64,000 bases of DNA from an uncultured Gammaproteobacteria bacterium (lineage in GTDB: Bacteria; Patescibacteriota; Patescibacteriia; UBA9934). A program made the translations under genes and the position numbers. The DNA lies in NCBI GenBank assembly GCA_964414795.1, contig CAYPWV010000005.1, forward strand, positions 4,336 through 68,335, read 5' to 3'. This document shows positions 7,690 through 63,716 of this stretch, piece by piece. Numbering within the stretch: position 1 is the first letter of the stretch; each line of letters starts with the position of its first letter. The notes beneath the pieces were generated by a model. The model saw nothing but the letters and a program-made list of their open reading frames with translations. It did no database searches and had not been told where the DNA came from.

Positions 7690-10062
7690 TTACTTTTTCA
7701 CGATATCTTCGTCCACATCTTCGTCGATTTCGTCGTCATGATCATTATCGCGAGACGCCATAAATGGCGTCTCTACGTCCTCATCCTGATCACCATCAGG
7801 GGGCGGAAGGTGTTCCGCCCCTGCGTCATCATTATCGTATTCTTCCATACTCGACCCATGCGGCGGCCAGGATGTCACCAGCACCTCACGGGGCTTTGCA
7901 CCATCCGAAGGACCGACAACTCCCATCTCTTCGAGAAGATCAAGGATACGCGCTGCTCGCGAATAGCCAATCTTCATGCGACGCTGTAGATACGACGTTG
8001 AAAGATGCCCTGCATCAATAGCAATTTGAATAGCCTCTTCAAGAAGCGGATCAGCATCATCTCCTCCCAAAGAAACGCCTCCACTATTGTCACCTTTTCC
8101 TCCTTCAATAATTTGATAATTATAATCCGGCGTACTTTCTTTTTTAAGAAAAGAAACGACGTTTTCAATCTCTTCTTCTGAAATAAAAGCGCCTTGAATA
8201 CGCTTGGGTTTACTCAGCTCAGCATTTGAAAGCAACATGTCACCACGACCAAGCAATTTATCCGCACCTGCAACGTCAAGAATCGTTTTCGAATCAACTT
8301 GTGAAGCAACCGCAAACGCCAAACGCGTAGGAATATTTGCCTTAATGGTTCCGGTAATAACATCCACCGACGGACGCTGCGTTGCAAGAATAAGATGGAT
8401 GCCCGCCGCACGCGCCATTTGCGCAATACGCACCACCGTTGCTTCAACATCGCGCTTGTTTTGAATCATTAAATCCGCCAACTCATCGATAATGATAATA
8501 ATGCGCGGCATCTTTTCGGAAGACTTTGCATTATAGGAATCAATATCTTTTGCATTAAACTTCGCCAAATAATCAAGACGTCGTTCCATTTCCCGCACAC
8601 CCCACTTAAGCGCATTCACCGCCTCTTCTGCTTTCACAATAGGCGGCACCAAAAGATGCGGAATACCCGCATACACGCCCAATTCTACGCGCTTCGGATC
8701 AACCATGATGAATTTCAAATCATCCGGACCGTTTTGATACAGAAGCGAAATGATCATGGTATTTAAACACACCGACTTTCCACTTCCCGTTGCACCTGCA
8801 ACGAGCATGTGCGGCGCACGCTCCACTTGCAAAAGGGGAACGCTTCCCGAAATATCACGCCCGAGCGGAACAGAATATTGCGACTTTCTCTTTTCAAAAT
8901 CTGGCGACTCAATAAGCTCACGCAGCGTAACGCGCGCCACCGTTTGGTTAGGCACTTCAACACCCACTAATGCCTTTCCTGGGATAGGCGCTTCAATACG
9001 AATAGGATGCGCAGCAAGCGCAAGAGCAAGATCGTTTTGCAAAGCAATAACCCGCGCAAGCTTCACTCCTTGTGCCGGACGAAATGCGTATTGCGTAACC
9101 GTTGGCCCCACACGCACTTCGCTCATTTCTACATCAATACCAAACTGTCGCAATGTTTTCGCGATAATTTCCTGATTGCGTGTAATATCTCCCGGCTTTG
9201 CTTCGCTCCGACGATTATCAAGAAGATCGAGTGGAATATCTACCGTGCGACGAGGTTCGCTTGAGGTAATAACCTGTTCCCCCTCCTTTTTGGCCGATTG
9301 CATCATTTGAAATACCTTTACAGCCTTTGCGGATTTTTCTTCTTCTGCGGATTCGTTGTCTCCGTCGTCATTATCCTTGTCGCGATCACGAGACGCCATG
9401 AATGGCGTCTCTACGTCTTCATCTTCGTTCTCATCTTGTTCTTTTTGGACGGATGCATTGGTCGATCCCTTTTTTGGCTTACCCTCTTCGTCGTAACGCA
9501 CAACTTTCGCAGTTGCGAGAGACTCTTTTGTGGAACGCAGCACATCAAATAACGGCGCAAGCATCACCCCGAGAGGAATATTCGTAATGCCGATAACGCC
9601 CACAACCATCGCAACAAGCGCTAAAAAGCCCGCAACTAAACCGCCAAATGCTCCCGCAACCCACGAACCAAACACAAGCCCAAACACTCCACCCGCATGA
9701 CGAAGCGCCTCATCAGTAACCGTTCGCACAAAGAGCACGTGCAAAAGACCGGTTACACCAAGCGTAATCGCCGTTGCCGACAACAACGTGCGCAGCGACA
9801 AAAAGCGACGATCGCCTAAAATCATGTCTGTTCCAATACCCAAAAGTAACAACGGAAAAACAATGCGCCCCATCCCTGCACCAGAAGCAAGGGCGTTATC
9901 AATACTATCTCCCGCAGAACCCGCAAGCCCCACCATCGCCAAAAGCATCACCACGCCAAGCGCAATAACAATCACCGCAAGAATACTAGAAAGAATCCCC
10001 CCACCTCCTTCATCAAAGGCATATTCCTCCTCTTCGTACTTTTTTGCTTTTCGCTTTGCCAT
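7690..10062 (-). CDS. ftsK: DNA translocase FtsK/SpoIIIE (790 aa)
   Basis: N-terminal TM helices, an acidic linker, an ATPase core (MLVAGATGSGKSVCLN Walker A, IIIIDELADLM Walker B) and a gamma winged helix (GYSRAARILDLLEEMGVVGP). An unusual ~60-aa acidic C-terminal extension follows the gamma domain. The linker and this tail each carry one copy of the palindromic element. Confidence 0.93.
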   Translation of the reverse strand: MAKRKAKKYEEEEYAFDEGGGGILSSILAVIVIALGVVMLLAMVGLAGSAGDSIDNALASGAGMGRIVFPLLLLGIGTDMILGDRRFLSLRTLLSATAITLGVTGLLHVLFVRTVTDEALRHAGGVFGLVFGSWVAGAFGGLVAGFLALVAMVVGVIGITNIPLGVMLAPLFDVLRSTKESLATAKVVRYDEEGKPKKGSTNASVQKEQDENEDEDVETPFMASRDRDKDNDDGDNESAEEEKSAKAVKVFQMMQSAKKEGEQVITSSEPRRTVDIPLDLLDNRRSEAKPGDITRNQEIIAKTLRQFGIDVEMSEVRVGPTVTQYAFRPAQGVKLARVIALQNDLALALAAHPIRIEAPIPGKALVGVEVPNQTVARVTLRELIESPDFEKRKSQYSVPLGRDISGSVPLLQVERAPHMLVAGATGSGKSVCLNTMIISLLYQNGPDDLKFIMVDPKRVELGVYAGIPHLLVPPIVKAEEAVNALKWGVREMERRLDYLAKFNAKDIDSYNAKSSEKMPRIIIIIDELADLMIQNKRDVEATVVRIAQMARAAGIHLILATQRPSVDVITGTIKANIPTRLAFAVASQVDSKTILDVAGADKLLGRGDMLLSNAELSKPKRIQGAFISEEEIENVVSFLKKESTPDYNYQIIEGGKGDNSGGVSLGGDDADPLLEEAIQIAIDAGHLSTSYLQRRMKIGYSRAARILDLLEEMGVVGPSDGAKPREVLVTSWPPHGSSMEEYDNDDAGAEHLPPPDGDQDEDVETPFMASRDNDHDDEIDEDVDEDIVKK
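7752..7776. repeat. Palindromic element copy A (GAGACGCCAT-aa-ATGGCGTCTC plus TAC), in-frame in the ftsK C-terminal tail encoding DEDVETPFMASRDND
   Basis: Perfect 10+2+10 palindrome read directly. The 25-nt core is shared with the copies at 9390, 28145 and 35041. Confidence 0.8.
9390..9414. repeat. Palindromic element copy B (GAGACGCCAT-ga-ATGGCGTCTC plus TAC), in-frame in the ftsK linker encoding EDVETPFMASRDRDK
   Basis: Same palindrome as copy A. It lies in the acidic linker between the TM region and the motor domain. Confidence 0.8.
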
Positions 10063-10112
10063 ATACGTTCAACATTGTAGCAAAGTATGAAAATCGCTAC
10101 ATATGAACCAAT

Positions 10113-13100
10113 TTAAGCGTAGACCGGTTCAAACTCCTTATAGACACGCACGGTCTCAAAGTAAATGAACTCGATAAGACGCTCAGTTTGTTTTTCTTGA
10201 AGAATGCCTCGTTGAATCAACATCAAACGAACATTCTGACGAATACGAGCTTTAATGGTTTCGTTATTTGTCCAATCGATTGCGAGGTCTCTTCGAATAC
10301 GTTTTGTGAGATCTTTTACGAATTCTTTAATATCAATCCCGGTATCTTTAAGGTCGGGATTCTTTTCTAGCGAATCGTAGAATGCGATTTCTTCAGGGGA
10401 CAGTCCAAGTGCCTGACTTTCTTCATCGAGCTTTTTGATTTCTCCAGCGATCTCAAGAAGACGTTTGATGATTTCCGCCGAGCTAATCACGTTGTTCTCG
10501 TATTTTTCAATGAGATCGGAAAGCAAAGTAAGCATCGTCTCATAGCGCGCCTTGTTCATTCGCATTCGAGTAACAATTTCCTTATCCAGTAATTTGCGAA
10601 CGGTATCAACGGCAAGGTTTTTGTACTCAGATTTGCGAATTTCTTCGGCAAACTTCTCATCGAAAATAGAGATACTCTTCGATTCGTTTGCAACAGCAAA
10701 TAAATCAATGACTTCTTCGGCCTGAACGGCATCATGAAGCAGCGAACGAATTGCACTTTCCGTTTCTTCAGGGAAAACTGCCTTTGGAATAACCGTTTGC
10801 TTCGCGATTCCTTCGCGAACCGCTTGAAAGAATTGCACATCACCAGCAATCTTCATGGCTGGTTCGCTTGGCATGACCAATGCATGTAACTTCGACAATT
10901 TTCCAACGGTACCGATGTACTGCATCTTTTGATCGTCGGAAAGAATTCCGTTCTTTGAAATTACCGCGTTAATACAAGACTGCAACAACCGAGACAATTC
11001 CGTACCCTTCAGTTTTTTCCAATCCGAATATGTGATGCTATCCAGAAACGCGATACTTTGTTTATGTAGCGCATTCATTTCTGAGATAATCTCATCAAGA
11101 GGAATCATCGCCTCTTTTTGAGTTCCGGAATCATATACTGCCAACGCTTTTTTGAGGTTGTCTGCGATACCGATGTAATCAACAATAAGTCCACCCGGTT
11201 TATCCTTAAACACCCGGTTGACACGGGCGATTGCCTGCATGAGTCCGTGGTTTTTAAGCGGCTTATCAAGATACATGGTGTGGAGGCACGGGACATCAAA
11301 ACCCGTTAGCCACATATCGCAAACAATCGCGATCTTGAGCGGATCGTTTATTTTCTTGAATCTTTTTTCCAGCTTCTTTACGTCACGCTCGGTTTGAATA
11401 TCTGACACATATTCATCGCTATCAGATATAACTACCGCGCATTCAGGGGCATTAGGTATCTTTTGAATCTCTTTGTACATTGCAACTGCGATTCTTCGAC
11501 TCATTGTCACGATCATCGCCTTTCCTTCAATAGGGCGATTCGTGAAGTGACGAACAACATCTTTTGCAACTTCCTCTATACGACTCTGCGCTCCAACAAT
11601 CTCTTCAAGTACTGCCCACTCTTTACGAGCTTTTGTTTTCTCATCAACGATAATTTCCCCAAGTAAGCTATCGAATTTTGAATCGATAAACTTATCCGCC
11701 ATGTGCAGTGGCACAAGACGCCCCTCGTAATAAATAGGAACCGTTGCACCGTCCCGTACCGCCTTACCAATGCGATACTCACTTACTATTGGCCCGAACA
11801 CCCTTACCGTGTCCTTATCGTCATTCGAGATAGGAGTTCCTGTAACGCCTAAAAAGCTCGCGTTTGGCAAAGCCTGTCGTACACTCCCAGCAAGACCACT
11901 ATATTGAGTACGGTGGGCTTCATCAGCAAGTACAATCACGTTCTCGCGATCCGTTAATACCGCATTCGCGTCTGGATCTTCCTTAAACTTTTGGATCGTA
12001 GTGAAAATAAGTTCGCTCTGTAAATGTCCGAGTCGATTCCTTAGGTCTGCGATACTCAACGCTCGTTTTGCAAGCGTTCCATATCCTGTCCGTTTAAACG
12101 TCTTAAAAAGCTGATCATCCAAATCTTCGCGATCGGTAAGAAAGACGTAGGCCGGGCCTTTCAATGCATCGATGCGATTGGTTTTGTTAACGTAGAAAAC
12201 CATGGAAAGTGATTTTCCGGATCCTTGCGTGTGCCAGAAAACACCGATCTTGTGATCCTGTTCGCCTCCCACGGCGCGTATCGTGCTTTCAACGGTCTCA
12301 TTGACTCCGTAATACTGATGATACAGACACATTTTCTTCGTGTAGGTAACTGCGTCTCCATCTCCATCTGCCTCGAAGACGATAAAGTTCCGAAGCACGT
12401 CCAAGAAACGATGCTTTTCGAATAAGCCAATTGCGAGTACTTCAAGTTGACTCGCATCTTTTGGCGCATCATCATCCGTCTTTACCCCTTTCCATGCCCC
12501 ATAACGCTCCCAGGAAGAGGAAATCGTTCCATGCTTCGCCGTATGAAGATCAGAAAGTCCGATAACTTGGTTATACAAGAAGAGCTTTGGAATCTCTTTT
12601 TTGTACAATTCGATATCTCGATACGCTTCGCCGATAGAAGCAGTATCACGCACTGCGCTTTTTAGCTCGAATACCGACAACGGCAATCCATTGATAAACA
12701 CCACTACATCAGGACGACGAAGAGAATCCGCTCCCTGTACAGTGAATTGATTTACAACGAGAAATTCATTTGCATCTGCATTCTCATAATCAATAAGTTT
12801 CACTAACTCGGCATTCTCGTTTCCATCAGTTCGCCAAGAATGCTTTTTTCCATCCGTAATCCAGGAAAACATTTCCTTATTACCAAGAACCAGATCCGCA
12901 TGATTATATTCCGCAATATCATCTGCAACTTCCTCGGCCTGCTCTGAAGGCAACTGCGGATTAAGGCGTCGAATAGCCCCAACCAACCGATCCTTCAATA
13001 CAACAGTTCGAAAATCGCCACGCTCAGCTTTTTGCTGACCGGGGTTAATGTCGGGGCCGTATACATATTCATAGCCCTGACCCTTGAGCCAATCTATAAG

Positions 13101-13163
13101 GGATTGCTCGGTTAAGTTTTGTTCGTTGAGAGAGTTCATAGATTGAATTCGGGATATCCACAT
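10113..13163 (-). CDS. hsdR: Type I restriction enzyme R subunit (1016 aa)
   Basis: N-terminal HsdR_N/nuclease region, SF2 helicase motifs (TQGSGKSLSMVF Walker A, VLADEAHRTQ DEAH box, GFDVPCL), and the typical C-terminal helical domain. Confidence 0.93.
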   Translation of the reverse strand: MWISRIQSMNSLNEQNLTEQSLIDWLKGQGYEYVYGPDINPGQQKAERGDFRTVVLKDRLVGAIRRLNPQLPSEQAEEVADDIAEYNHADLVLGNKEMFSWITDGKKHSWRTDGNENAELVKLIDYENADANEFLVVNQFTVQGADSLRRPDVVVFINGLPLSVFELKSAVRDTASIGEAYRDIELYKKEIPKLFLYNQVIGLSDLHTAKHGTISSSWERYGAWKGVKTDDDAPKDASQLEVLAIGLFEKHRFLDVLRNFIVFEADGDGDAVTYTKKMCLYHQYYGVNETVESTIRAVGGEQDHKIGVFWHTQGSGKSLSMVFYVNKTNRIDALKGPAYVFLTDREDLDDQLFKTFKRTGYGTLAKRALSIADLRNRLGHLQSELIFTTIQKFKEDPDANAVLTDRENVIVLADEAHRTQYSGLAGSVRQALPNASFLGVTGTPISNDDKDTVRVFGPIVSEYRIGKAVRDGATVPIYYEGRLVPLHMADKFIDSKFDSLLGEIIVDEKTKARKEWAVLEEIVGAQSRIEEVAKDVVRHFTNRPIEGKAMIVTMSRRIAVAMYKEIQKIPNAPECAVVISDSDEYVSDIQTERDVKKLEKRFKKINDPLKIAIVCDMWLTGFDVPCLHTMYLDKPLKNHGLMQAIARVNRVFKDKPGGLIVDYIGIADNLKKALAVYDSGTQKEAMIPLDEIISEMNALHKQSIAFLDSITYSDWKKLKGTELSRLLQSCINAVISKNGILSDDQKMQYIGTVGKLSKLHALVMPSEPAMKIAGDVQFFQAVREGIAKQTVIPKAVFPEETESAIRSLLHDAVQAEEVIDLFAVANESKSISIFDEKFAEEIRKSEYKNLAVDTVRKLLDKEIVTRMRMNKARYETMLTLLSDLIEKYENNVISSAEIIKRLLEIAGEIKKLDEESQALGLSPEEIAFYDSLEKNPDLKDTGIDIKEFVKDLTKRIRRDLAIDWTNNETIKARIRQNVRLMLIQRGILQEKQTERLIEFIYFETVRVYKEFEPVYA

Positions 13164-13261
13164 CTCCTTGATTTTTAGCCCTACTTAAGGTAGTTTTAAG
13201 GTAAAGGTTCCAACCCTCCGATACGAGCCCCTGGGCTCTTCCGAAAGGATAGGGGGGTTGG

Positions 13262-13987
13262 TCATTTTTTATCTACATATTTGTAAAATTCAGTTGTTCC
13301 TGATTTAAAAATTTCAAAGTGATTTTTAATGTGTGCCTTAATAATTTCGTAAGGCCGAATCTCATTCCTCTCATTTTTAATCGAAACTGCCCAACAGCAA
13401 TAATCAGCAAGTTGACAATTCAAATCAGAATTCGACGAGTGAGAAAAAATCTCAAATGGTACGGGGGGAAATGCTTCTTTCAAAAAATGTTTTAGTGTTT
13501 GCAGAACAATCTTTTTCTTGTCGCCAGTATAGAGAGAGCCCAGAACGACAACAATTTTATCAACTTTTTCGCGCTTTCCCTCAAATAAGTATTTCAACAA
13601 ACACTCACAACATTTCTTATAAAGACCGAATCCTGTTACTCGTTCAATTAATTTTTTTCGTTTATAATAGTTTTTTTTATATAAAGTTGGGTTGGCTTTA
13701 TTTTTTTGAGCTATCACTGAATGCACTTCAAAAGTTCCATTGAGTTGTTCGAACAAACGAAACACTCGATTTCTCACATCTTGTGAATCCTCGGTTGCGT
13801 GAAAAGATTCTTGATCCAAGCCTTGTACAAGTAATCGATAACGCAAGCGCAATAACTCTTCTCGCTTTATCACGGGATCAAAAGTGACAAAACCCGTAAG
13901 AACAAAAAACTTTGTCCCCTTTGGGGAGAAATCAAAATTTCCTGACTCATCCAAAAACACGAAAATTGTCTTTTGTGTGGACTCCAT
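13262..13987 (-). CDS. DUF3800 family protein (241 aa), embedded between hsdS and hsdR
   Basis: Its N-terminus, IFVFLDESGNFDF, is the [FY]xDESG signature I associate with DUF3800. A paralog lies at 16518-17171. The region is AT-rich relative to its neighbours. Confidence 0.7.
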   Translation of the reverse strand: MESTQKTIFVFLDESGNFDFSPKGTKFFVLTGFVTFDPVIKREELLRLRYRLLVQGLDQESFHATEDSQDVRNRVFRLFEQLNGTFEVHSVIAQKNKANPTLYKKNYYKRKKLIERVTGFGLYKKCCECLLKYLFEGKREKVDKIVVVLGSLYTGDKKKIVLQTLKHFLKEAFPPVPFEIFSHSSNSDLNCQLADYCCWAVSIKNERNEIRPYEIIKAHIKNHFEIFKSGTTEFYKYVDKK

Positions 13988-13991
13988 AGAA

Positions 13992-15143
13992 CTAAATCAA
14001 CTTTACTGATAACAAATCTCTTGATTGTTCCAAAAGCTCGACTTCTTTAATTAACCGTTTTATTTCTTCAAACAACGAAGCAACTCTTTTATGAAATAGG
14101 TTAATTATTGCACCGGTGGGTTCTAATACTTTGATATTTGAGAATATATTAGTATTCACATTCAACGTCGTTGATCCACCTGAACCGATAGCTTGTAAGT
14201 CACTCTTTTTACTTACTAAACTGAAGTACAGAAATTCCAGCAGACTCTTACCATTCGGGATGACGGTATTTATCTGTTGATTCGTCTGTGAGTCTTTCGT
14301 TGTAATTGAAACCAATCCAACGGTTGCAATACAACTCACACAAATCGATCCTTCTGGCACAAGTTTATTTTTTTGAGTACTGGCACCTGCTTCTGTGAGG
14401 CTGTCTTCAGTTTTAATGATAAATACCTGCCCATGCATGTCAGGAATTTTTATAAAAAATATATCACCACCAAAATAGCTTGGTTCAGACTTTGAAGGAG
14501 TTTTTCCACAAACTACATTTCCAAAATCACTGACTTTTCCAACTCGCCACCCCTCCGGAATCTCCCCCATCTCACTCTCAACCAATCCGACCTTCTCATG
14601 ACCAGGAAAGTTAAACTTCACAAACCACTCGTCAAAAATGGCTTGTGCAATTGCTTCAAGATTTTTGATAATGGAGTTGTTGTTTTGTATTTTTTCATCG
14701 TAAGAGCTCAAAATTGCCGCAATCTTTTTTTGATACTGGACATTGGGAATTTTTACTTGCATCCCGTGTATGTGATTACGGTTTAGGGTAGGAACTCCCG
14801 TCCCAGAATTGAATTTTTCAAAATCAAATGACGACAAAAAATAATAACAAAACTTTGGATCATTACCGTGAAAATCACTGACGTACAAGGTCGTGTTATG
14901 CGGCCAATAATCCTCCTCCACGTAAAAGATGCCCCCCAACGATCCACTTCGCCCTGTAAATACACCGGGTCCTCTAACCTTGAACTCATTGTGAAATTCT
15001 CTTCGACCATTCGAGAAGACAACCGGGTATTCACCTTTTTTAATCTCCGTCAGAGGCAGATCATAACCTCGATGAAAGGTGATCACTTCGCCAAGAGTTG
15101 TTTCTTTTCTCTCCTTTTTTATTTGTTCCAAAAATTTGTCCAT
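13992..15143 (-). CDS. hsdS: Type I restriction-modification specificity subunit
   Basis: Two target-recognition domains separated by and ending in conserved coiled-coil spacer regions (LEAIAQAIFDEWFVKF...; C-terminal LFEEIKRLIKEVELLEQSRDLL). It starts 5 nt after the stop of the upstream coiled-coil gene. Confidence 0.9.
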   Translation of the reverse strand: MDKFLEQIKKERKETTLGEVITFHRGYDLPLTEIKKGEYPVVFSNGRREFHNEFKVRGPGVFTGRSGSLGGIFYVEEDYWPHNTTLYVSDFHGNDPKFCYYFLSSFDFEKFNSGTGVPTLNRNHIHGMQVKIPNVQYQKKIAAILSSYDEKIQNNNSIIKNLEAIAQAIFDEWFVKFNFPGHEKVGLVESEMGEIPEGWRVGKVSDFGNVVCGKTPSKSEPSYFGGDIFFIKIPDMHGQVFIIKTEDSLTEAGASTQKNKLVPEGSICVSCIATVGLVSITTKDSQTNQQINTVIPNGKSLLEFLYFSLVSKKSDLQAIGSGGSTTLNVNTNIFSNIKVLEPTGAIINLFHKRVASLFEEIKRLIKEVELLEQSRDLLSVKLI

Positions 15144-15145
15144 AT

Positions 15146-16318
15146 TTATTCTTCTTCTGGCACCGGCAATTCCAACGCCTCAATCTTTTGCAACTGAACA
15201 ACTCCGCTAATATCCCCATAAATACCTATCGTATTTTTAATAACTTTTTGAATCTGTTTTTCTCGCTCCGTCCAAATCTTTTCATAAGCAAGACGCTCCT
15301 TTTGTAAAGAAATATTCATACCTTGAAACGCTTCGACAATCGCCTCAATGCGCTGACGGAATTCAACTCCTGAAAGATAGGAATACATAACTTCCATCTT
15401 TTCATTCTTGCCAACCGAACTGAACTTTTCACGAGCTACCGAAAGAAGTTCTTGCCGAAGAAGTGTGGCAACAGAAACGGCCAATTTTATATCGCAAACC
15501 CATACGCCATCTCGATCAGAGATTGCGTCTGCGCCCGTTGGAAGAACGGACGAGACGATAACCGCGAGATCCGCTTTTACCGTTCGTTGATCGTCCTTAA
15601 GTTTTTGAATCCAGCCTTCAGTCCAAACTTTTGTCTTTTTAGACTCCCAAATAATCTTTCCGCACTCAATACCATTCTTATTTTTAACAATCTGAATTAC
15701 ATCAGCTCCGTTAACTCCTTTGGGGACAAGGATGATATCGTCGTAAATAAATTCACTCTTGAGCGTTTCCTCAAGAATCATTTCTTGAACTTCGCCCTGC
15801 GTCTGCTGCGACCCTTGTTCTAACTTTCTAGCCAACTCATCTTTCGCTTTTGTGGCATCGGAGAGCTGCTTGTTTAACTGATCAATCTTAGCTTGCTGAG
15901 CCTCTGTGGCTCGCTTCGATGCGTCTTCTTCGATCTTCTTTCGCTCTTCATCCATCTGACGCTGTTTCTCTAGCTCAAAGCGGTCTTTCTCTTCTTTTAA
16001 CTGCACAGCCTGACGACGAAGTTCAAGCTCTTTTTCTCCTGACTCCTTAAGCTTTTGCTCCTTGTCCTTAAGTTGCTCCTCTAAAAACTTGCGCTCTGCT
16101 TCACCTTCTTTTGCTACGTCGGCTTTTACTTTTTTCGTAAGGTCAGCAGATAGTGCATCCAACTTCTTTGTATTCTCCCTTTCGAGGGATGCCTTAAGAA
16201 CAGCTTCTTTTTCTTCAAAGTCTTTCTTTAGTTTACTCTCAATCTGGTGCGTCAAAACATCATCGATAGAAATCGACTCATGACAGTTTGGACAGATAAT
16301 TTCGTTTGTTTTTGACAT
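15146..16318 (-). CDS. Zinc-ribbon / long coiled-coil / C-terminal PD-(D/E)xK-like protein (DUF2130-like, 390 aa)
   Basis: N-terminal CPNCHESISIDD zinc ribbon. About 170 aa of E/K-rich heptad coiled coil. C-terminal domain with a candidate nuclease motif (GADVIQIV...GKIIWESKKTK reads as D...ExK). It sits between a DUF3800 gene and hsdS. Confidence 0.6.
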   Translation of the reverse strand: MSKTNEIICPNCHESISIDDVLTHQIESKLKKDFEEKEAVLKASLERENTKKLDALSADLTKKVKADVAKEGEAERKFLEEQLKDKEQKLKESGEKELELRRQAVQLKEEKDRFELEKQRQMDEERKKIEEDASKRATEAQQAKIDQLNKQLSDATKAKDELARKLEQGSQQTQGEVQEMILEETLKSEFIYDDIILVPKGVNGADVIQIVKNKNGIECGKIIWESKKTKVWTEGWIQKLKDDQRTVKADLAVIVSSVLPTGADAISDRDGVWVCDIKLAVSVATLLRQELLSVAREKFSSVGKNEKMEVMYSYLSGVEFRQRIEAIVEAFQGMNISLQKERLAYEKIWTEREKQIQKVIKNTIGIYGDISGVVQLQKIEALELPVPEEE

Positions 16319-16517
16319 ATGGGGATAGATTGACTTTTTGTTCAGATTCTGGTATATTCTTTAGTAGAGGCATGCAATAATATCTTATCTGATGCTTCGG
16401 CGTTCCCTCGGAGTTTCTGGGGTTTCTCTCGGCAACGAGAGATGTAGCTGAAGATATTCATCACATAAGACGCTGCTTCTACCAAAGAAAGTCTGTATCA
16501 CAGGCTTTTTTTGTTTG

Positions 16518-17171
16518 TCATGTGAAAAACTCCTTCCCTTGGTCAAGAAAATTATTCTTGAGAATTTTGTAGCATTCTTCACCAAGTGGGGATTTTTCCA
16601 GATAACGATTCAAGGCTCCGGAGATCCAGTCTACAATCTGCATGTTTGCATTCGATGTAGAATCAACCATTTCCACTTGTACCACGGTTCCTGGAGGACA
16701 AAGCGTAAGAATTCGTGCTCGAATTGATTGTTCAAATTCTTTTTTCGTAACGCCATTTAAAGAGCGCTGGTCGCAAAATACATGAATCTCTTTTTCGTCA
16801 TTAGGAAAATATTGTTCGATAATTTGGGTAATAATATTGGTATAAAGTTTACCGCTCTCAATTTTTCCTTTTTTCCGAAAATTACTCGGGATATTATTTC
16901 GCAGTAAATAACCAAACCGAATACGCACGTCTAATTTTGCAATATATTTCAATGTCTTTATACGAAGATCGTCGGTGATGCCAGATTGCGACCATTTGAT
17001 CTCAGCTTGCGATCGCATCTTTCTCGGAAACCGATCACGCCACGCTCGGAAAGCTTTTGCAGTTCGACGCTGATCACCAACCGTAAAAGATCCAATCACG
17101 AAATACTCCTCATGGTTATGCTTTGTAAAATTGCCACTCTCATCCAAAAAGAGAAACATATTAGAATCCAA
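16518..17171 (-). CDS. DUF3800 family protein, second paralog (217 aa), embedded immediately downstream of hsdM
   Basis: N-terminus MFLFLDESGNFTKH carries the same DESG signature. It overlaps the hsdM stop by 11 nt. Confidence 0.7.
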   Translation of the reverse strand: MDSNMFLFLDESGNFTKHNHEEYFVIGSFTVGDQRRTAKAFRAWRDRFPRKMRSQAEIKWSQSGITDDLRIKTLKYIAKLDVRIRFGYLLRNNIPSNFRKKGKIESGKLYTNIITQIIEQYFPNDEKEIHVFCDQRSLNGVTKKEFEQSIRARILTLCPPGTVVQVEMVDSTSNANMQIVDWISGALNRYLEKSPLGEECYKILKNNFLDQGKEFFT

Positions 17172-18957
17172 GCTCTTTCAAGTTGCCCTCAATAACATTC
17201 TCTAGTTCGTGTCCGCGTTTAAAGGAAATATGCAGTTCATCGGAAAGCTTTTTCATCTTTTCCTCGAACGAGATGCCGTCATCTTCCACCTCGGAGAGTC
17301 CGACATATCGTCCTGGAGTGAGGACGTAACCGTTCTTTTGAATCTCATCTAACGTTGCCGATCGGCAATAACCAAGGATGTCCTCGTATGCACCGGCTCC
17401 ATCCTCTCCGCGCCACGCACGAACCGTCCCTGCAATCTTTTGTATATGCTCTGCGTTGAATACAACTTGCTTACGTGAAATCTGCTCGAACAATTCTCGG
17501 GCATCAATAAAAAGCGTTTCTCCTTTGCGAGAGCGGAAGCGGTCACCACCTTTATTTTTTGATAAGAACCAAAGCGATACAGGAAGCCCAACGTTGTAGA
17601 AAAGTTTAGAGGGACAGGAAATAATCACGTCAACAAAATCCGTTTCGATAAGTTTTTGTCGAAGCTCACCTTCTTTTCCAGATACTGCCAACGCACCGTT
17701 TGGCATGACAAATCCAGCGTTTCCGTTGGGCGCGAGATGATGCACAAAATGCTGTATCCACATGAAGTTGGCATTTCCCGAAGGGGGAAGGCCAAGAATG
17801 ATCCGGGGATCGTTGTCCGAAAGTTTCGAGGGTTCCCATTCACCATTGAAGGGAGGATTCGTGATAACGAAATCCGCCTGCAAATGCGGGAACATGTCGT
17901 TATAGTAAGTGTTGCCGAGTTCGATCTTTCCGGAAAGGCCTCGGATCGCAAGGTTCATCTTGGCAAGGCGAAGCGTTGTCTGGTTGCTTTCCTGACCATT
18001 AAATGAAAGTTTTGGCGCATCCTTCCCATGTTCGCGAAGATATTCAGCTATGGATACGAACATGCCACCGCTTCCACAGGCAGGATCAAAAACGCGAGCA
18101 TTCTCTCGCGGCTCAAGAACTTCTACTAAAAGTTTTACGATCGAACGCGGAGTGAAAAATTCTCCGCCACGTTTGCCCTCCGCTGAGGCAAACTGCCCAA
18201 GGAAGTACTCGTAAATGCGCCCAAGGATATCTTTTTCTCGATCAAAATCATGATTGAATGAAATGCGGGAAAAGATGTTAACCAATTCACCCAATACCGA
18301 ATGATCAAGATTTGTTTTTGTATATACGCGTGGAAGTACATTTTCAAGTTGATCAGGATTATCCTTCTCGATAAGCATCATTGCATCATCTAAAACCTTT
18401 CCCAAATCCGCGCTCATTGTCTTCGTTTGGAGATACTCCCAACGCGACCGTTCTGGAACGTAGAAAACACCTTCCGCGGTATAAAAATCTTTAGTCTCAA
18501 GAATTTGCTTACGAGCCTCCTCGTTCGAAACATAGAAATCCTCGTTCTTTGGATCGCGAGTCATTTCCGCGAGTACCTCACGACGTTTGTAGAAAGAATC
18601 CGAAATGTATTTTAAAAAGAGAAGCCCGAGAACGATGTTCTTATATTCGGAGACATCGATATTTCCACGGAGCTTATCAGCGGCTGCCCACAGTTCTTTT
18701 TCGAAGCCAAGATCATGGTGCTGACTCTTTTTTCCGACCACGCTTGCCGTCGCCTTCTTCTGCTCTTCCGTGATTCGTCCTTGAAGCTCCTCGGAAAGAG
18801 AGGCCTTGGGGATAACAAAGGTCGGTTTCGACGAATCGCCGATATTTTCAGCAATAATGTCACCTTTCTTAATTTTCTGGTGAACAGCCACACGAGAAAT
18901 CCCCAGCATCTTGGCTAGCTGGGTTGGAGTAATGAATTGGGATTTATCGATGGACAT
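17161..18957 (-). CDS. hsdM: Type I restriction-modification DNA methyltransferase (N6-adenine) with an extra N-terminal HTH domain
   Basis: HsdM_N region (ELWAAADKLRGNIDVSEYKNIVLGLLFLKYISD), the SAM motif (FDPACGSGGMF) and the catalytic VITNPPFN motif. The first ~80 aa are an additional HTH (ITPTQLAKMLGISRVAVHQKIKKGDI). Confidence 0.93.
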   Translation of the reverse strand: MSIDKSQFITPTQLAKMLGISRVAVHQKIKKGDIIAENIGDSSKPTFVIPKASLSEELQGRITEEQKKATASVVGKKSQHHDLGFEKELWAAADKLRGNIDVSEYKNIVLGLLFLKYISDSFYKRREVLAEMTRDPKNEDFYVSNEEARKQILETKDFYTAEGVFYVPERSRWEYLQTKTMSADLGKVLDDAMMLIEKDNPDQLENVLPRVYTKTNLDHSVLGELVNIFSRISFNHDFDREKDILGRIYEYFLGQFASAEGKRGGEFFTPRSIVKLLVEVLEPRENARVFDPACGSGGMFVSIAEYLREHGKDAPKLSFNGQESNQTTLRLAKMNLAIRGLSGKIELGNTYYNDMFPHLQADFVITNPPFNGEWEPSKLSDNDPRIILGLPPSGNANFMWIQHFVHHLAPNGNAGFVMPNGALAVSGKEGELRQKLIETDFVDVIISCPSKLFYNVGLPVSLWFLSKNKGGDRFRSRKGETLFIDARELFEQISRKQVVFNAEHIQKIAGTVRAWRGEDGAGAYEDILGYCRSATLDEIQKNGYVLTPGRYVGLSEVEDDGISFEEKMKKLSDELHISFKRGHELENVIEGNLKELGF

Positions 18958-18971
18958 AGGTGTACTTTTGA

Positions 18972-18985
18972 TTTACACGTGTAAA
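18972..18985. promoter_or_regulatory. Perfect 14-bp palindrome TTTACACGTGTAAA overlapping the predicted hsdM -10/+1; a second half-site TTTACACA lies 27 bp away
   Basis: Seen in sequence. On the minus strand, TTGACA sits 17 nt upstream of TACTTT, and the palindrome lies immediately downstream. This is the position expected for an operator bound by the HsdM N-terminal HTH (inference). Confidence 0.4.
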
Positions 18986-19053
18986 GTACTATACGGAGTT
19001 CATTTTGTCAACTTTACACATGATAAGGTGCCTTTATTCCCAACGGAACAAAA

Positions 19054-19087
19054 AACTCACTCCATTTCTGAAGTGAGTTTTTTGGAA
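19054..19087. terminator. Bidirectional rho-independent terminator (A-run, AACTCACT...AGTGAGTT hairpin, T-run) between hsdM and efp
   Basis: Hairpin flanked by an A-run and a T-run, just downstream of the efp stop on the minus strand. Confidence 0.55.
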
Positions 19088-19092
19088 AAAAC

Positions 19093-19659
19093 TTACCTAC
19101 TCACGCGCTCCACATAATCCCCCGTTTCAGTATTCACCATCACCACATCACCCTGCTTAATAAAAATAGGCACGCGAACGATAAGACCGTTATCCATTTT
19201 TGCATCCTTGAGCACGTTACCAGAAGCAGTGTCGCCCTTTACCGCAGGCTCCGTTTCTACAATCGTGTACTCAATTTTGAGCGGAAGCTCCATGGAGATT
19301 GCCTTGTCATCGTGCATGATGACCGTGACATCAAGCCCTTCCTTCAAATACTGCGCATCCTCGCCTACGGTATCTCGACCAATGGCAACCTGTTCATACG
19401 ACTGTCCATCCATAAACGTAAGCGTATTTTCATCACCAAAAATGTACTGCATCTTTTTGAATCCCACCGTTTCAAAGGTGACATTTTCTGCAGACTTAAA
19501 GTTATTTTCTACAACCTTTCCAGAAGAAAGGGACTTCATTTTGGTACGCACAAATGAGCTTCCCTTTCCTGGAGAAACGCGCTGAAAGCCCACAATAACC
19601 CAAAGGTCATTTTCATAGTTAAGCACCGTACCTTTGCGAATATCGTTGGGGGAAGACAT
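19093..19659 (-). CDS. efp: Elongation factor P
   Basis: Full-length EF-P (188 aa). The KPGKG-type loop (VSPGKGSSFVRTK) carries the modifiable lysine. Confidence 0.95.
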   Translation of the reverse strand: MSSPNDIRKGTVLNYENDLWVIVGFQRVSPGKGSSFVRTKMKSLSSGKVVENNFKSAENVTFETVGFKKMQYIFGDENTLTFMDGQSYEQVAIGRDTVGEDAQYLKEGLDVTVIMHDDKAISMELPLKIEYTIVETEPAVKGDTASGNVLKDAKMDNGLIVRVPIFIKQGDVVMVNTETGDYVERVSR

Positions 19660-36100: not shown

Positions 36101-36290
36101 CTTGGGGATAAAATTGTCAACGCAGTCTTTGACAAAAACGTTTTCCCCAAAATGCCCACAGGCTTATACACAACTTATCCACATATATGTTCCACATGAA
36201 ACTTTATCTATTTCTTAAATAATCGCTAATATAAAACAAATCTACTTGTTTTCCCCGATCTGTATTTTTGATAATAAAAAGTTATGCACA

Positions 36291-36592: not shown

Positions 36593-36668
36593 TGGTGTCC
36601 TCACCTGGGGTCGAACCAGGATTACAGGCTTAGGACGCCCATGTTCTATCCAATTGAACTATGAGGAC
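36593..36668 (-). tRNA. tRNA-Arg (anticodon CCT), CCA encoded
   Basis: Manual cloverleaf: acceptor GTCCTCA/TGAGGAC, D-arm GTTC..GAAC, anticodon loop GUCCUAA, T-arm CCTGG-TTCGACC-CCAGG, discriminator A plus CCA. Confidence 0.85.
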
Positions 36669-61796: not shown

Positions 61797-61981
61797 ATAA
61801 AAGTAAGCAGAGCATACGCCTCGATACCGCGGGTGTCAACTTCTTCGCTGAAATTCGCCAACCTTCTAAAAAAGTTATCCACACCTTATCCCTGCACAAC
61901 GTTTATTTCGCCAGTCTCTGCAGAATTGTACCCTGTGGATAAAATGGGTATTATCCTCGCAGTCGTTCATACACCCGTGGG
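61797..61981. promoter_or_regulatory. Divergent rpmH/dnaA promoter region with two convergent consensus DnaA boxes (TTATCCACA at ~61866; TGTGGATAA at ~61932)
   Basis: Boxes read directly; this is the classic dnaA autoregulatory arrangement. Confidence 0.6.
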
Positions 61982-63382: not shown

Positions 63383-63716
63383 TTATCCACAAGTTTTCCA
63401 CCTGTGGGTATAAGTGTTTGGTCTTTGTTCGTGTGCATACTATGCGGATAACCCTTGGGATAACTTGGGTGTAACCCTGTTGAAAAAATGCGGATAGAAG
63501 GGAGATAATTTTGTCAGTGTCAAAGAAGAATTCTTCGTCCACACGCTACACGCCCAATCCTCACCACACTGTCCACAGAAAACAAAACAAAACACTCCCA
63601 AAAACATTCATCCTTCCCCACTTATCCCAATCATCCACAGGCTTACTATTACTACCTGTCTTCTTTACTAAAAAATAAGTAACCTGTACTCATCCTTTCA
63701 TCCTTGTCCTTCTTCT
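63383..63716. promoter_or_regulatory. dnaA-dnaN intergenic region with multiple DnaA-box-like 9-mers (TTATCCACA, TGCGGATAA, TTGGGATAA, CTGTCCACA, TTATCCCAA, TCATCCACA) and AT-rich stretches: candidate oriC
   Basis: Boxes read directly; the position is canonical for bacterial origins. Confidence 0.6.

What the first reader, a model, noticed from the sequence alone, without database searches (positions are those of the whole stretch)
13262..17171. Two divergent DUF3800 paralogs bracket hsdS and the DUF2130-like gene
Both proteins (241 and 217 aa) open with the F-L-D-E-S-G-N-F signature and share predicted secondary-structure rhythm, but have diverged strongly elsewhere (similarity outside the N-terminal motif is low by eye). 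Duplicated, divergent copies flanking a specificity subunit suggest either two specificities or partner-specific functions.

The conserved acidic DESG motif at the extreme N-terminus is compatible with a metal-binding catalytic site, for example an RNase-H-like fold. DUF3800 remains functionally uncharacterised as far as I know.
Basis: partly seen in the sequence, partly recalled or inferred. Interest (0 to 1): 0.65.

Follow-up and report, generated by a model that had tools for sequence, protein, structure and literature searches.

The report
Two nuclease–small-RNA cassettes inside restriction operon
The two DUF3800 genes are real, but each is half of a two-part cassette, an RNase HII-like nuclease gene plus its own structured small RNA gene on the opposite strand, and both cassettes sit as cargo in a type I restriction-modification operon; what such pairs do has been unknown since 2017.

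Summary
ORFs 13262-13987 and 16518-17159/17171 (minus strand) both match Pfam DUF3800 and bracket DUF2130 and hsdS.

They are not a local duplication. They belong to two anciently diverged subfamilies (21% identity between family profiles), each with hundreds of close relatives, mostly in Patescibacteria.

Both fold like RNase HII (pLDDT 87 and 93; Foldseek E about 1e-5 to 2e-6). This fold was already predicted in the literature.

- Rfam DUF3800-V at 16366-16480 (55 bits), with its own promoter-like and terminator-like sites.
- A DUF3800-IX-like RNA at 13203-13273, below Rfam's threshold but backed by 75 homologues. 97% of cells are paired and 15 of 18 pairs show compensatory changes.

The pairing is exclusive: IX-like RNA in 79/80 A loci and 0/80 B loci; V RNA in 74/80 B loci and 0/80 A loci. 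The RNA is always convergent with the gene.

A related operon lacks both cassettes, so they are swappable cargo. DnaA boxes are enriched at the sRNA promoters.

Function is untested. My best guess (about 0.4) is an RNA-restrained nuclease, like a type III toxin-antitoxin, backing up restriction.

The parts
17161..18957 (-). hsdM, type I methyltransferase with an N-terminal HTH
   Evidence: Pfam N6_Mtase E 1e-101, HsdM_N E 4.5e-25, HTH_17 E 8e-4. PADLOC MTase_I E 6.5e-154.
16518..17159 (-). DUF3800-B, RNase HII-like protein (213 aa from ATG 17159; 217 aa if TTG 17171)
   Evidence: Pfam DUF3800 E 3.4e-15. PADLOC PDC-M04A E 3e-10. 274 homologues. AF2 pLDDT 92.6. The top 13 Foldseek PDB hits are all RNase HII/H2, E 2e-6 to 3e-3, TM 0.50-0.58. 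Invariant residues: D6 E7, E53, D130, S167, N172, Q174, D177.
16483..16520 (+). Terminator-like hairpin and T-run ending the V RNA; it abuts the DUF3800-B stop codon (16518-16520)
   Evidence: 14-pair stem CAAAGAAAGTCTG...CAGGCTTTTTTTG followed by TTTGT. Equivalent hairpins occur in many homologous loci.
16366..16480 (+). DUF3800-V small RNA (Rfam RF02964), 115-nt form with an extra hairpin at about 16424-16442
   Evidence: cmscan 55.4 bits against a gathering score of 37.4, E 1.6e-9, full model. MFE -43.5 kcal/mol, z -3.8. RNAalifold on 58 homologues: 34 pairs, 29 with compensatory changes. nhmmer finds it in 74/80 B-family loci and 0/80 A-family loci.
16330..16358 (+). Sigma-70-type promoter-like site for the V RNA (TTGACT, 17 nt, TG-n-TATATT)
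   Evidence: 10 of 12 matches plus an extended -10, ending 8 nt before the RNA. TTGACA/TATAAT-like pairs sit at the same place in most homologous loci.
15146..16318 (-). DUF2130 gene (N-terminal CxxC, coiled coil, C-terminal DUF2130)
   Evidence: Pfam DUF2130 E 8.4e-60. A 2012 survey of the PD-(D/E)XK superfamily mentions the family (PMC3424549); I did not read the passage. Relatives lie directly after a methyltransferase gene in 3 of 3 contexts sampled, so it is probably part of the core operon.
13992..15143 (-). hsdS, type I specificity subunit
   Evidence: Pfam Methylase_S E 1.5e-39, two stretches. PADLOC Specificity_I E 7e-118.
13262..13987 (-). DUF3800-A, RNase HII-like protein (241 aa) with a rearranged acidic set
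   Evidence: Pfam DUF3800 E 1.2e-14. PADLOC DUF3800_VII E 1.4e-9. 565 homologues. AF2 pLDDT 86.7. Foldseek top hit RNase HII 1eke, E 1e-5, followed by PIWI domains of short Argonautes at E about 1e-2. Invariant residues: D13 E14, H63 E66 D67, H183, D188, N190, Q192, D195. It has no counterpart of B's D130.
13203..13273 (+). DUF3800-IX-like small RNA: P1 (10 bp) closing two hairpins, then UCAUUUUUU. Its 3' end overlaps the stop codon and last codons of DUF3800-A.
   Evidence: Rfam RF02968 gives 25.3 bits, below the gathering score of 36.8. Alignment of 76 instances: 97.4% of cells paired, 15/18 pairs compensatory, 0/500 shuffles reach this, slid controls 39-60%. nhmmer finds it in 79/80 A loci and 0/80 B loci. 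With my model R1 the window scores 88.5 bits (it was in the training set); held-out loci score 81-87 bits.
13154..13162 (+). DnaA-box-like 9-mer ATATCCACA (one mismatch), 40 nt upstream of the IX-like RNA and 5 nt upstream of a weak -35/-10 pair (TTGATT 13168-13173, TAGTTT 13191-13196)
   Evidence: Exact boxes occur at this distance (35-43 nt) in 10% of IX-like and 28% of V loci, against 0.1-0.6% of random windows. The weak promoter is my reading of the sequence; the scan did not call it.
10113..13163 (-). hsdR, type I restriction subunit (start possibly at 13139; gene callers give 1008 aa)
   Evidence: Pfam HSDR_N, SWI2_SNF2, T1R_D3-like, T1RH-like_C. PADLOC REase_I E 3.6e-249. Gene call.

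Best explanation
What it is (shown). A type I R-M operon of a Patescibacteria genome has the core hsdM-DUF2130-hsdS-hsdR. It carries two independent cargo cassettes of about 850 bp each.
- Each cassette is a DUF3800 gene (RNase HII-like fold, acidic motifs conserved) plus a small structured RNA gene on the opposite strand.
- The V RNA has a strong promoter-like site of its own; the IX-like RNA has only a weak one that the scan did not call. Each RNA's 3' end abuts or overlaps the protein's stop codon.
- Cassette B + DUF3800-V RNA sits after hsdM. Cassette A + IX-like RNA sits between hsdS and hsdR.
- Each protein subfamily is found only with its own RNA class.

How it most likely works (inferred, not shown). 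The RNA binds its cognate nuclease and keeps it inactive, as an RNA antitoxin does in type III toxin-antitoxin or abortive-infection systems. The RNA acts as an uncleavable all-RNA pseudo-substrate for an enzyme built to cut RNA-DNA hybrids or DNA. Convergent transcription additionally damps the nuclease mRNA. If RNA supply fails (host transcription shut-off, RNA decay, or altered DnaA activity at the sRNA promoter), the nuclease is freed and attacks replication intermediates or nucleic acids of the invader or the cell. Placed in the R-M operon, this would give a second line of defence when restriction is evaded.
For: Anatomy:
- Pfam and Rfam matches.
- Promoter-like and terminator-like sites on the + strand flanking the V RNA.
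- Strong covariation in both RNAs.
- All 79 IX-like and all 75 V matches lie on the strand opposite to the gene. The IX-like RNA ends a median of -1 nt from the stop codon, the V RNA a median of 32 nt.
- Exclusive pairing: 79/80 versus 0/80, and 74/80 versus 0/80. The B loci without an RNA hit appear to be contigs that end just after the gene. R1 finds a related RNA next to A relatives of only 27-35% identity.

Fold:
- RNase HII/H2 are the top structural matches for both proteins.
- D-E, N-x-Q-x-x-D and further acidic residues are invariant in each family.

Cargo status:
- A 73-77% identical operon (L191) has hsdM and DUF2130 three bases apart. It carries an AAA_21/DUF4435 gene where cassette A sits.
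- L010 carries RhuM in place of B + DUF2130.

Defence context:
- R-M families top the census of neighbours of both subfamilies but not of genes at least 5 kb away.
- Neighbouring cargo includes an OLD-family nuclease and weaker matches to HEPN and Bro-N.
- PADLOC models DUF3800_VII (retron VII) and PDC-M04A match.
- The literature links DUF3800 to retron type VII and to Cas12a2/a3, Cas13 and type III loci (PMC7736814, PMC10910872, PMC13594972, PMC12669027, bioRxiv 10.64898/2026.08.25.746378).

Precedent:
- RCd22, the RNA partner of AbiF in C. difficile, carries two conserved 'abiF' RNA motifs. It was shown to be a type III-like RNA antitoxin that binds its toxin (PMC12373285).
Against: - No toxicity, RNA binding or nuclease activity has been shown for any DUF3800 protein.
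- Obligate co-occurrence fits an RNA cofactor as well as an RNA antitoxin.
- Classical type III antitoxins are tandem repeats upstream on the same strand. Here the RNA is single-copy and convergent.
- Subfamily A lacks the counterpart of B's D130, so its catalytic competence is uncertain.
- Most family members sit among housekeeping genes in small Patescibacteria genomes.
- Both subfamilies are unusually well conserved for defence genes (55-80% identity across many lineages).
- The operon must be transcribed through both sRNA genes in antisense to reach hsdS and hsdR. This could mean the RNAs mainly regulate expression.
Confidence: 0.4

Rival explanations
1. Ribonucleoprotein enzyme. The small RNA is an obligatory cofactor or scaffold that activates the RNase HII-like protein or gives it substrate specificity, as in RNase P or guide-loaded Argonaute. 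The RNP, not the free protein, is the active nuclease.
For: - Near-obligate, class-specific co-occurrence and co-evolution.
- Invariant single-stranded and junction nucleotides, such as 5'-AAAGGU, GAyAAGAG, GGAUAG and GGUC, suited to specific recognition.
- Structural similarity of A to PIWI domains of short Argonautes at E about 1e-2.
- Published suggestion that DUF3800 acts in interference or crRNA metabolism in Cas12a2 loci (PMC10910872).
Against: - Neither RNA has a variable unpaired segment that could serve as a guide. The variable part of the IX-like RNA (P1) is fully base-paired and covaries.
- RNase HII enzymes need no RNA cofactor (established knowledge).
Confidence: 0.25
2. Replication-linked RNase H function. 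The pair removes or controls RNA-DNA hybrids (R-loops, primers) under DnaA control. It would serve mainly the cell's own replication fidelity, or the exclusion of R-loop-primed replicons, rather than acting as a suicide module.
For: - DnaA boxes are enriched about 15- to 80-fold at the sRNA promoters, abutting the -35.
- The canonical box is valid in this organism, because it flanks dnaA itself.
- RNase H is classically known to enforce DnaA/oriC-dependent initiation by removing R-loops (established knowledge).
- Many loci are in housekeeping neighbourhoods.
Against: - The family is sparse: 372 confirmed matches in a collection of 185,579 species genomes.
- The cassettes are swappable cargo.
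- R-M genes are enriched locally.
- Only 10-42% of loci have a box, and the window's V promoter has none.
Confidence: 0.1
3. Pure antisense regulation. The RNAs are cis-antisense transcripts whose only role is to down-regulate the DUF3800 mRNA, and in this operon hsdS or hsdR, by transcriptional interference and duplex formation, as in convergent type I toxin-antitoxin loci.
For: - Strictly convergent layout, with the RNA 3' end overlapping the stop codon.
- The operon must read through both RNA genes in antisense (sequence).
Against: - An antisense role needs no conserved fold. Both RNAs have heavily covarying helices and sequence conserved across phyla, outside the coding region.
- Each RNA class tracks one protein subfamily.
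Confidence: 0.08
4. Selfish mobile cassette. The nuclease and RNA promote their own insertion or retention, like a homing or TnpB-like element, and R-M operons are merely tolerated landing sites.
For: - Compact cassettes of about 850 bp, present or absent between otherwise colinear operons.
- RNase H-fold nuclease plus an RNA overlapping the gene's 3' end, as in TnpB/omega-RNA (general knowledge).
Against: - No terminal direct or inverted repeats flank either cassette.
- No guide-like variable RNA segment.
- One copy per locus.
- Rare on viral contigs: 1 and 7 loci.
Confidence: 0.05
5. The two paralogs are accessory subunits of this R-M enzyme, providing two specificities or pairing with particular Hsd subunits.
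For: - Fixed slots. B follows hsdM in the 8 R-M-embedded B loci with an adjacent hsdM match. A lies between hsdS and hsdR in 5 of the R-M-embedded A loci, and directly before hsdR in a sixth contig that is cut just upstream of A.
- Start codons are tightly coupled to the upstream gene's stop.
Against: - About 90% of relatives are not next to R-M genes.
- None of 160 other loci has both subfamilies.
- Related operons work with other cargo or none in the same slots.
Confidence: 0.03

Closest known systems
DUF3800-associated RNA motifs (DUF3800-I to -XI; Weinberg et al. 2017, PMC5737381; Rfam RF02964 and RF02968)
   Same: The B cassette is a standard member: a DUF3800 gene next to a DUF3800-V RNA above Rfam's gathering score. 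The A-associated RNA has the DUF3800-IX architecture: a C-rich/G-rich closing helix, GA junction, two hairpins, UAG junction and a U tail.
   Different: The A-associated RNA misses the IX gathering score here (25.3 against 36.8). It also misses it in all 20 homologous loci tested, so it is a sister class not captured by Rfam 15. The exclusive subfamily-to-class pairing, the fixed convergent geometry, the R-M slots and the DnaA boxes appear in none of the papers I read. The 2017 supplement was not available to me.
Type III toxin-antitoxin / abortive infection systems (ToxIN, AbiQ, CptIN; AbiF-RCd22, PMC12373285)
   Same: A nuclease-type protein is genetically locked to a small structured RNA expressed from its own strong promoter. 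AbiF's RNA partner RCd22, which carries conserved 'abiF' RNA motifs, proved to be a protein-binding RNA antitoxin.
   Different: The toxin fold differs: RNase HII-like, not ToxN/Kid-like or HEPN. The RNA is single-copy, not tandem repeats, and is convergent rather than upstream on the same strand. No toxicity or binding data exist.
PrrC-EcoprrI (anticodon nuclease encoded between hsdS and hsdR of a type Ic R-M operon)
   Same: A latent nuclease gene sits in the hsdS-hsdR slot of a type I operon. That is exactly where cassette A sits here, and in 5 other loci with both hsdS and hsdR matches. The idea of a back-up to restriction is shared. This comparison is from my own knowledge.
   Different: There is no sequence or fold relation. 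PrrC is restrained by the R-M proteins, whereas here the candidate restraint is a cognate RNA. Most DUF3800 cassettes live without any R-M system.
Retron type VII (RT + ncRNA + DUF3800; Mestre et al. 2020, PMC7736814)
   Same: A DUF3800 protein is teamed with a non-coding RNA in a predicted defence system. Protein A's best PADLOC match is the retron-VII DUF3800 model.
   Different: No reverse transcriptase is encoded in or next to the operon, so there is no msDNA. The RNA classes are unrelated to msr/msd.
RNase HII / RNase H2 (PDB 1eke, 3p83, 1i39, 1io2, 3puf)
   Same: Whole-domain fold match (TM 0.5-0.58). The N-terminal strand ends in adjacent D-E followed by a small Gly-containing loop: DESGNF here, DEAGRG in RNase HII (the latter from memory).
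   Different: Only 12-18% identity and no Pfam RNase_HII match. There are extra helices between strands 2 and 3. Subfamily A lacks the strand-4 Asp and has shifted acidic positions.
CRISPR-associated DUF3800 proteins (Csx32 in Cas13 CASK loci; TPR-DUF3800 with Cas12a2/a3)
   Same: Same Pfam family. All are accessory to nucleic-acid-sensing immune systems, and function is unassigned.
   Different: Those proteins accompany CRISPR effectors and often carry TPR domains. These are bare domains with a dedicated sRNA inside an R-M operon.

Membership tests
Pfam DUF3800 (PF12686) | Profile match above the curated gathering score (21 bits) | tested here: met
   A scores 55.7 bits and B 57.5 bits, both over nearly the whole profile.
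Pfam DUF3800 (PF12686) | N-terminal D-E motif and C-terminal Q-x-x-D motif (as quoted in PMC7736814) | tested here: met
   A has D13-E14 and Q192-L-A-D195. B has D6-E7 and Q174-I-V-D177. All are invariant in their family alignments.
Rfam DUF3800-V RNA (RF02964) | Covariance-model score at or above the gathering score (37.4 bits), next to a DUF3800 gene | tested here: met
   55.4 bits, full-length, at 16366-16480(+), 38 nt from the DUF3800-B stop codon.
Rfam DUF3800-IX RNA (RF02968) | Covariance-model score at or above the gathering score (36.8 bits) | tested here: not met
   25.3 bits in the window. None of 20 homologous loci reaches the gathering score. 2 of 10 give sub-threshold matches of 32 and 27.9 bits. 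The architecture is the same, but I file it as IX-like, not as IX.
Structured RNA (any class) | Base pairs maintained by compensatory changes beyond controls | tested here: met
   IX-like: 97.4% of cells paired, 15/18 pairs compensatory, 0/500 shuffles reach this, slid controls 39-60%. V: 29 of 34 pairs compensatory.
RNase HII / type 2 RNase H | RNase H-like fold most similar to RNase HII | tested here: met
   Foldseek against PDB. B: the top 13 hits are all RNase HII/H2, E 2e-6 to 3e-3. A: 1eke at E 1e-5.
RNase HII / type 2 RNase H | Complete D-E-D-D catalytic set at equivalent positions | tested here: inconclusive
   B has D6, E7, D130 (end of strand 4) and D166 (after strand 5) at the expected elements. 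A has no counterpart of D130, and D188 replaces D166 four residues later. I made no structural superposition of side chains.
RNase HII / type 2 RNase H | Sequence-profile membership (Pfam RNase_HII) | tested here: not met
   Only DUF3800 is reported by Pfam at E up to 0.01. No PDB sequence match at E up to 1.
Type III toxin-antitoxin | RNA antitoxin made of tandem repeats, upstream of the toxin gene and on the same strand | tested here: not met
   The RNAs are single-copy, downstream and on the opposite strand in all 154 matches. No tandem array was seen in the region.
Type III toxin-antitoxin | Protein is toxic and is neutralised by direct binding of the RNA | not testable with these tools
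   Needs expression and rescue experiments and binding assays.
Type I restriction-modification system | hsdM, hsdS and hsdR in one operon | tested here: met
   All are on the minus strand, 10113-18957.
Retron type VII | Reverse transcriptase and msr/msd ncRNA adjacent to the DUF3800 gene | tested here: not met
   Every ORF from 7690 to 19659 is otherwise assigned, and there is no RT domain.
Genes embedded in defence operons (as in TgvAB in a type I operon, PMC11411939) | Present or absent between otherwise colinear operons, with other cargo in the same slot | tested here: met
   L191 lacks both cassettes and has AAA_21/DUF4435 in slot A. L010 has RhuM in place of B + DUF2130.

The most novel reading that the evidence does not exclude
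DUF3800-sRNA pairs are a widespread, so far unrecognised class of two-component immune or addiction modules. A family-specific structured RNA restrains an RNase HII-like nuclease. In many lineages, transcription of that RNA is wired to DnaA, so the module reads the cell's replication-initiation state. Type I R-M operons recruit such modules at fixed slots as a back-up. The two orthogonal pairs in this operon would then be two independently triggered fuses.
Probability: 0.2. Interest if true: 0.8.

Novelty: new variant of a known kind. Interest (0 to 1): 0.6.

Why it matters
DUF3800 is found in many phyla and recurs beside retrons, Cas12a2/a3, Cas13 and type III CRISPR loci. Its many partner RNAs were called curious in 2017, and no function was proposed.

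This locus turns the puzzle into a clean experiment. It holds two small proteins and two small RNAs that are naturally orthogonal. The predictions are clear:
- cognate but not non-cognate RNA binding or rescue;
- dependence on the acidic residues;
- activity on RNA-DNA hybrids;
- control of the sRNA promoters by DnaA.

It also adds an RNA class of at least 80 members that Rfam 15 does not detect. It shows that type I operons in Patescibacteria have fixed cargo slots.

Tried and rejected
- The supplementary text of Weinberg 2017, which discusses the DUF3800 motifs, is not held.
- No paper mentions PADLOC's PDC-M04. PF12686 appears only in unrelated genome surveys.
- Profile searches of PDB sequences found no solved DUF3800 protein.
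- NCBIfam has no model for either protein. PHROGs gives only unknown-function families for B.
- I looked for transposon-like terminal repeats around the cassettes and found none. The only meaningful repeat is the shared N-terminal coding motif.
- I tested whether the families are phage-borne. Only 1 (B) and 7 (A, distant) viral contigs carry a relative.
- I considered the minus-strand reading of the 13164-13261 spacer, as a 3' UTR structure or tRNA-like pseudoknot (13 bits). I rejected it because G-U pairs and the family alignment fit only the plus strand.
- I considered a mini-ORF (AUG CAA UAA) in the V RNA. I rejected it because the AUG is not conserved.
- I expected the two subfamilies to co-occur elsewhere. 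They do not, in any of 160 loci.

Full report
**1. What is there**

On the minus strand the window encodes, in order:
- hsdM (17161-18957)
- a DUF3800 gene, here called B (16518-17159)
- a 199-nt spacer
- a DUF2130 gene (15146-16318)
- hsdS (13992-15143)
- a second DUF3800 gene, here called A (13262-13987)
- a 98-nt spacer
- hsdR (10113-13163)

FtsK and EF-P flank the operon. Both DUF3800 ORFs pass Pfam's cut-off (55.7 and 57.5 bits against 21). Both begin with F-x-LDESGNF. BLASTP sees only that N-terminal stretch (13/31 identical).

B probably starts at the ATG at 17159, one base after the hsdM stop (213 aa), as in independent gene calls and homologues. EF-P clusters with Patescibacteria proteins. 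The same gene order was also assembled from a public sequencing run; I did not check whether that run is independent of this window's sample.

**2. The two genes are not a local duplication**

Each has hundreds of close relatives. A has 565 hits and B has 274, mostly at 50-80% identity and mostly named Patescibacteria where named.

The two family profiles align over 214 columns at only 21% identity (HHalign probability 92.7%). Their DNA shares nothing beyond the N-terminal motif.

**3. Fold**

AlphaFold2 on the family alignments gives confident models: A has pLDDT 86.7 and pTM 0.84; B has pLDDT 92.6 and pTM 0.90.

Foldseek against the PDB gives the following.
- For B, the top 13 matches are exclusively RNase HII/H2 (3p83, 1eke, 1i39, 1uax, 1io2, 3puf). 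E ranges from 2e-6 to 3e-3 and TM from 0.50 to 0.58, over about 200 columns.
- For A, the top match is RNase HII 1eke (E 1e-5). PIWI domains of short Argonautes follow at E about 1e-2.

The conserved residues sit where an RNase H-type site is expected.
- B has D6-E7 at the end of strand 1, D130 at the end of strand 4 and D166 after strand 5. N172/Q174/D177 lie on the next helix.
- A keeps D13-E14 and N190/Q192/D195. It has no counterpart of D130, and it carries D188 four residues after the position of B's D166. It also has invariant H63, E66, D67 and H183.

This agrees with published predictions of an RNase H2-like fold with a rearranged site (PMC7736814, PMC10910872, PMC12669027). No DUF3800 protein has a solved structure detectable by sequence.

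**4.

*The V RNA.* Rfam places a DUF3800-V RNA at 16366-16480 on the plus strand, antisense to the operon (55.4 bits, gathering score 37.4). A promoter-like site (TTGACT, 17 nt, TG-n-TATATT; 16330-16358) lies 8 nt upstream. A terminator-like hairpin with a T-run (16483-16520) follows and touches the stop codon of B. The RNA folds at -43.5 kcal/mol, z -3.8.

*The IX-like RNA.* The spacer after gene A matches Rfam DUF3800-IX on the plus strand, but only at 25.3 bits (gathering score 36.8). I therefore tested it by comparison. I fetched 80 loci with A relatives from species-representative genomes. In 75 of them, the 70 nt after the stop codon on the opposite strand carry the same element:

AAAGGUUCC - P1 5' strand - GAyAAGAG(P2 hairpin) - UUCC-GAAA-GGA(P3) - UAG - P1 3' strand - GGUCAUUUU

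On the 76-sequence alignment:
- 97.4% of cells form standard pairs.
- 15 of 18 pairs show changes on both sides (215 cells).
- None of 500 column shuffles reaches these values.
- Sliding the partners by 1-3 columns drops pairing to 39-60%.

G-U pairs fit only the plus-strand reading. The RNA's GGUCA includes the reverse complement of the TGA stop codon, and its U-tract is encoded by the last Lys codons of A.

Rfam's IX model does not reach its threshold in any of 20 such loci. It gives sub-threshold matches in only 2 of 10. This is therefore an IX-like class that Rfam 15 does not capture. My covariance model R1 scores held-out instances at 81-87 bits. It still finds a related RNA next to A relatives of 27-35% identity on viral contigs.

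The V RNA is equally well supported: 29 of 34 pairs are compensatory over 58 sequences.

**5. Pairing and geometry**

Sequence-profile searches of all 160 loci and the window give:

| RNA | A-family loci | B-family loci | Window |
|---|---|---|---|
| IX-like | 79/80 | 0/80 | 1 |
| V | 0/80 | 74/80 | 1 |

The six B loci without a hit appear to be contigs that end just after the gene. The one A locus without a hit (L053) has a different promoter-driven sequence in the same place.

Every one of the 154 RNA matches is on the strand opposite to the gene. The IX-like RNA ends a median of -1 nt from the stop codon, and 74 of 79 lie within about 15 nt. The V RNA ends a median of 32 nt away. TTGACA/TATAAT-like promoters precede the RNAs in most loci.

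Each protein subfamily thus has its own cognate RNA in a fixed tail-to-tail arrangement.

**6. The cassettes are cargo in the R-M operon**

L191 is a related operon (73-77% nucleotide identity in hsdM, DUF2130 and hsdR). There, hsdM and DUF2130 lie three bases apart, so window 16310-17157 (B + V RNA) has no counterpart. An AAA_21/DUF4435 gene sits where cassette A (13141-13991) lies.

L010 keeps A + RNA + hsdR but has a RhuM gene in place of B + DUF2130.

DUF2130 relatives follow a methyltransferase gene in 3 of 3 sampled contexts. The core operon is therefore probably hsdM-DUF2130-hsdS-hsdR.

No terminal repeats flank the cassettes.

**7. Context survey**

Type I genes lie next to A in about 7-9 of 80 loci and next to B in about 9 of 80.
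- In five of the A loci, A lies between hsdS and hsdR. In a sixth contig, cut just upstream of A, it lies directly before hsdR.
- In the 8 B loci with an adjacent hsdM match, B lies directly after hsdM.
- The HsdM proteins of these loci are only 29-62% identical to the window's.
- One further A relative sits just upstream of a whole type I operon.

No other locus holds both subfamilies.

Census of neighbours by Pfam family:
- 100 immediate neighbours of A in 50 genomes: ResIII 8, HSDR_N 7, SWI2_SNF2 6, Methylase_S 5. Then AAA_23/SMC_N, N6_N4_Mtase, AAA_15, Eco57I, integrase, PLDc_2, AAA_21, GmrSD_N and HNH.
- B neighbours: N6_Mtase 5, Eco57I 4, Methylase_S 3, HsdM_N 3.
- 50 ORFs at least 5 kb away in the same loci: mostly housekeeping, with Methylase_S 1 and Resolvase 2. 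This output lists only the top 25 families, so the control is approximate.

Other cargo in DUF3800-bearing type I operons includes an OLD-family nuclease, plus weaker Pfam matches to HEPN_Apea and Bro-N.

R-M adjacency is thus clearly enriched. Even so, most cassettes sit among ordinary genes of small genomes, for example between dnaJ and miaA. Both subfamilies are rare on viral contigs.

**8. An unexpected extra: DnaA boxes**

Share of loci with a DnaA box in the -70 to -10 window upstream of the RNA 5' end, compared with random 60-nt windows of the same loci:

| Box | IX-like loci | V loci | Random windows |
|---|---|---|---|
| Exact TTATCCACA | 10% | 28% | 0.1% / 0.6% |
| Up to one mismatch | 20% | 42% | 1.6% / 2.8% |

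The box usually ends 35-43 nt before the RNA start, abutting the -35 hexamer.

The window has ATATCCACA at 13154-13162, 40 nt upstream of the IX-like RNA. It has no box before the V RNA.

The canonical box is valid in this organism. dnaA itself lies at 61982-63382 (Pfam E 4e-71) and is flanked by exact boxes.

**9. Mechanism**

Nothing about function has been shown for any DUF3800 protein in the papers I could read.

The near-obligate, class-specific, co-evolving gene-RNA pair implies direct protein-RNA interplay. This is an inference.

I consider an RNA-restrained nuclease most likely (about 0.4). The sRNA binds and silences its RNase HII-like partner, and loss of the RNA releases the nuclease. 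Points in favour:
- a dedicated promoter for each RNA, strong in most loci;
- the convergent layout, as in convergent type I toxin-antitoxin loci;
- the defence-operon cargo status;
- the links to retron VII and CRISPR loci;
- the precedent of AbiF's partner RNA RCd22, which carries conserved 'abiF' RNA motifs and proved to be a protein-binding RNA antitoxin (PMC12373285).

An RNP in which the RNA is a required cofactor is the main rival (0.25). Against a guide role, no unpaired variable segment exists.

The remaining rivals are less likely:
- A replication-linked RNase H role under DnaA control (0.1).
- Pure antisense regulation (0.08), which is contradicted by the conserved, covarying folds.
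- A selfish cassette (0.05).

**10. Comparison and verdict**

B + V RNA is a new member of the known DUF3800/RNA association (Weinberg 2017). A + IX-like RNA is a variant class not captured by Rfam.

The following appear in none of the papers I read; the 2017 supplement was not available to me:
- the dual, orthogonal cassettes in one type I operon;
- the fixed slots;
- the exclusive pairing;
- the DnaA boxes.

The arrangement resembles PrrC in EcoprrI in position and type III toxin-antitoxin systems in logic. It meets the defining features of neither.

I rate it a new variant of a known but functionally unsolved kind, with interest 0.6.

Noticed in passing
window 13154-13162; loci L081-L160 and L001-L080, upstream of the sRNA genes: DnaA boxes (TTATCCACA) are enriched at the sRNA promoters. 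Exact boxes occur in 10% (IX-like) and 28% (V) of loci, against 0.1-0.6% of random windows, and usually end 35-43 nt before the RNA start. The window has a one-mismatch box before the IX-like RNA only.
   Followed up: partly
window 61875-63391: dnaA (61982-63382, Pfam Bac_DnaA E 4e-71) is flanked by exact DnaA boxes at 61875, 61934 and 63383. The replication origin is probably at or just beyond the end of the window. More boxes lie at 36175 and 36352, in the spacer next to the tRNA at 36596-36668, and at 6983.
   Followed up: partly
window 17161-18957 (HsdM residues 9-54): HsdM carries an N-terminal helix-turn-helix (HTH_17, E 8e-4). The related HsdM in L191 has it too. It may be a built-in regulator of the operon.
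   Followed up: no
window 15146-16318; L187, L191, L192: DUF2130 (CxxC, coiled coil and a C-terminal DUF2130 domain that a 2012 PD-(D/E)XK survey mentions) follows a DNA methyltransferase gene in 3 of 3 sampled contexts: two type I operons and one Eco57I-like MTase with an SNF2 helicase. It is 65-97% conserved in Patescibacteria. It looks like a regular but uncharacterised R-M accessory.
   Followed up: partly
L191 6676-8187; L010 5550-6752; L034 4323-6230; L119 7522-8247: The slots used by the DUF3800 cassettes hold other cargo in related type I operons: AAA_21/DUF4435, RhuM, an OLD-family ATPase-TOPRIM nuclease and a protein with a weak HEPN_Apea match (E 2.9e-4, below Pfam's cut-off).
   Followed up: partly
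L097 11034-11098: An orphan partial copy of the V RNA (model positions 32-96, 55.8 bits) lies 2.4 kb from the complete gene-RNA pair, with no second DUF3800 gene detected.
   Followed up: no
L053 about 8640-8800 (opposite strand, after the A-family gene): This is the only A-family locus without the IX-like RNA. It has a different sequence with a TTGACA...CATAAT promoter in the same position, possibly yet another partner RNA class.
   Followed up: no
window 16424-16442: The window's V RNA has an extra 19-nt hairpin (UCUCUCGGCAACGAGAGA) relative to the Rfam consensus. A minority of homologues (for example L083-L088, L093, L154) share a 115-nt form with a hairpin at this site.
   Followed up: partly
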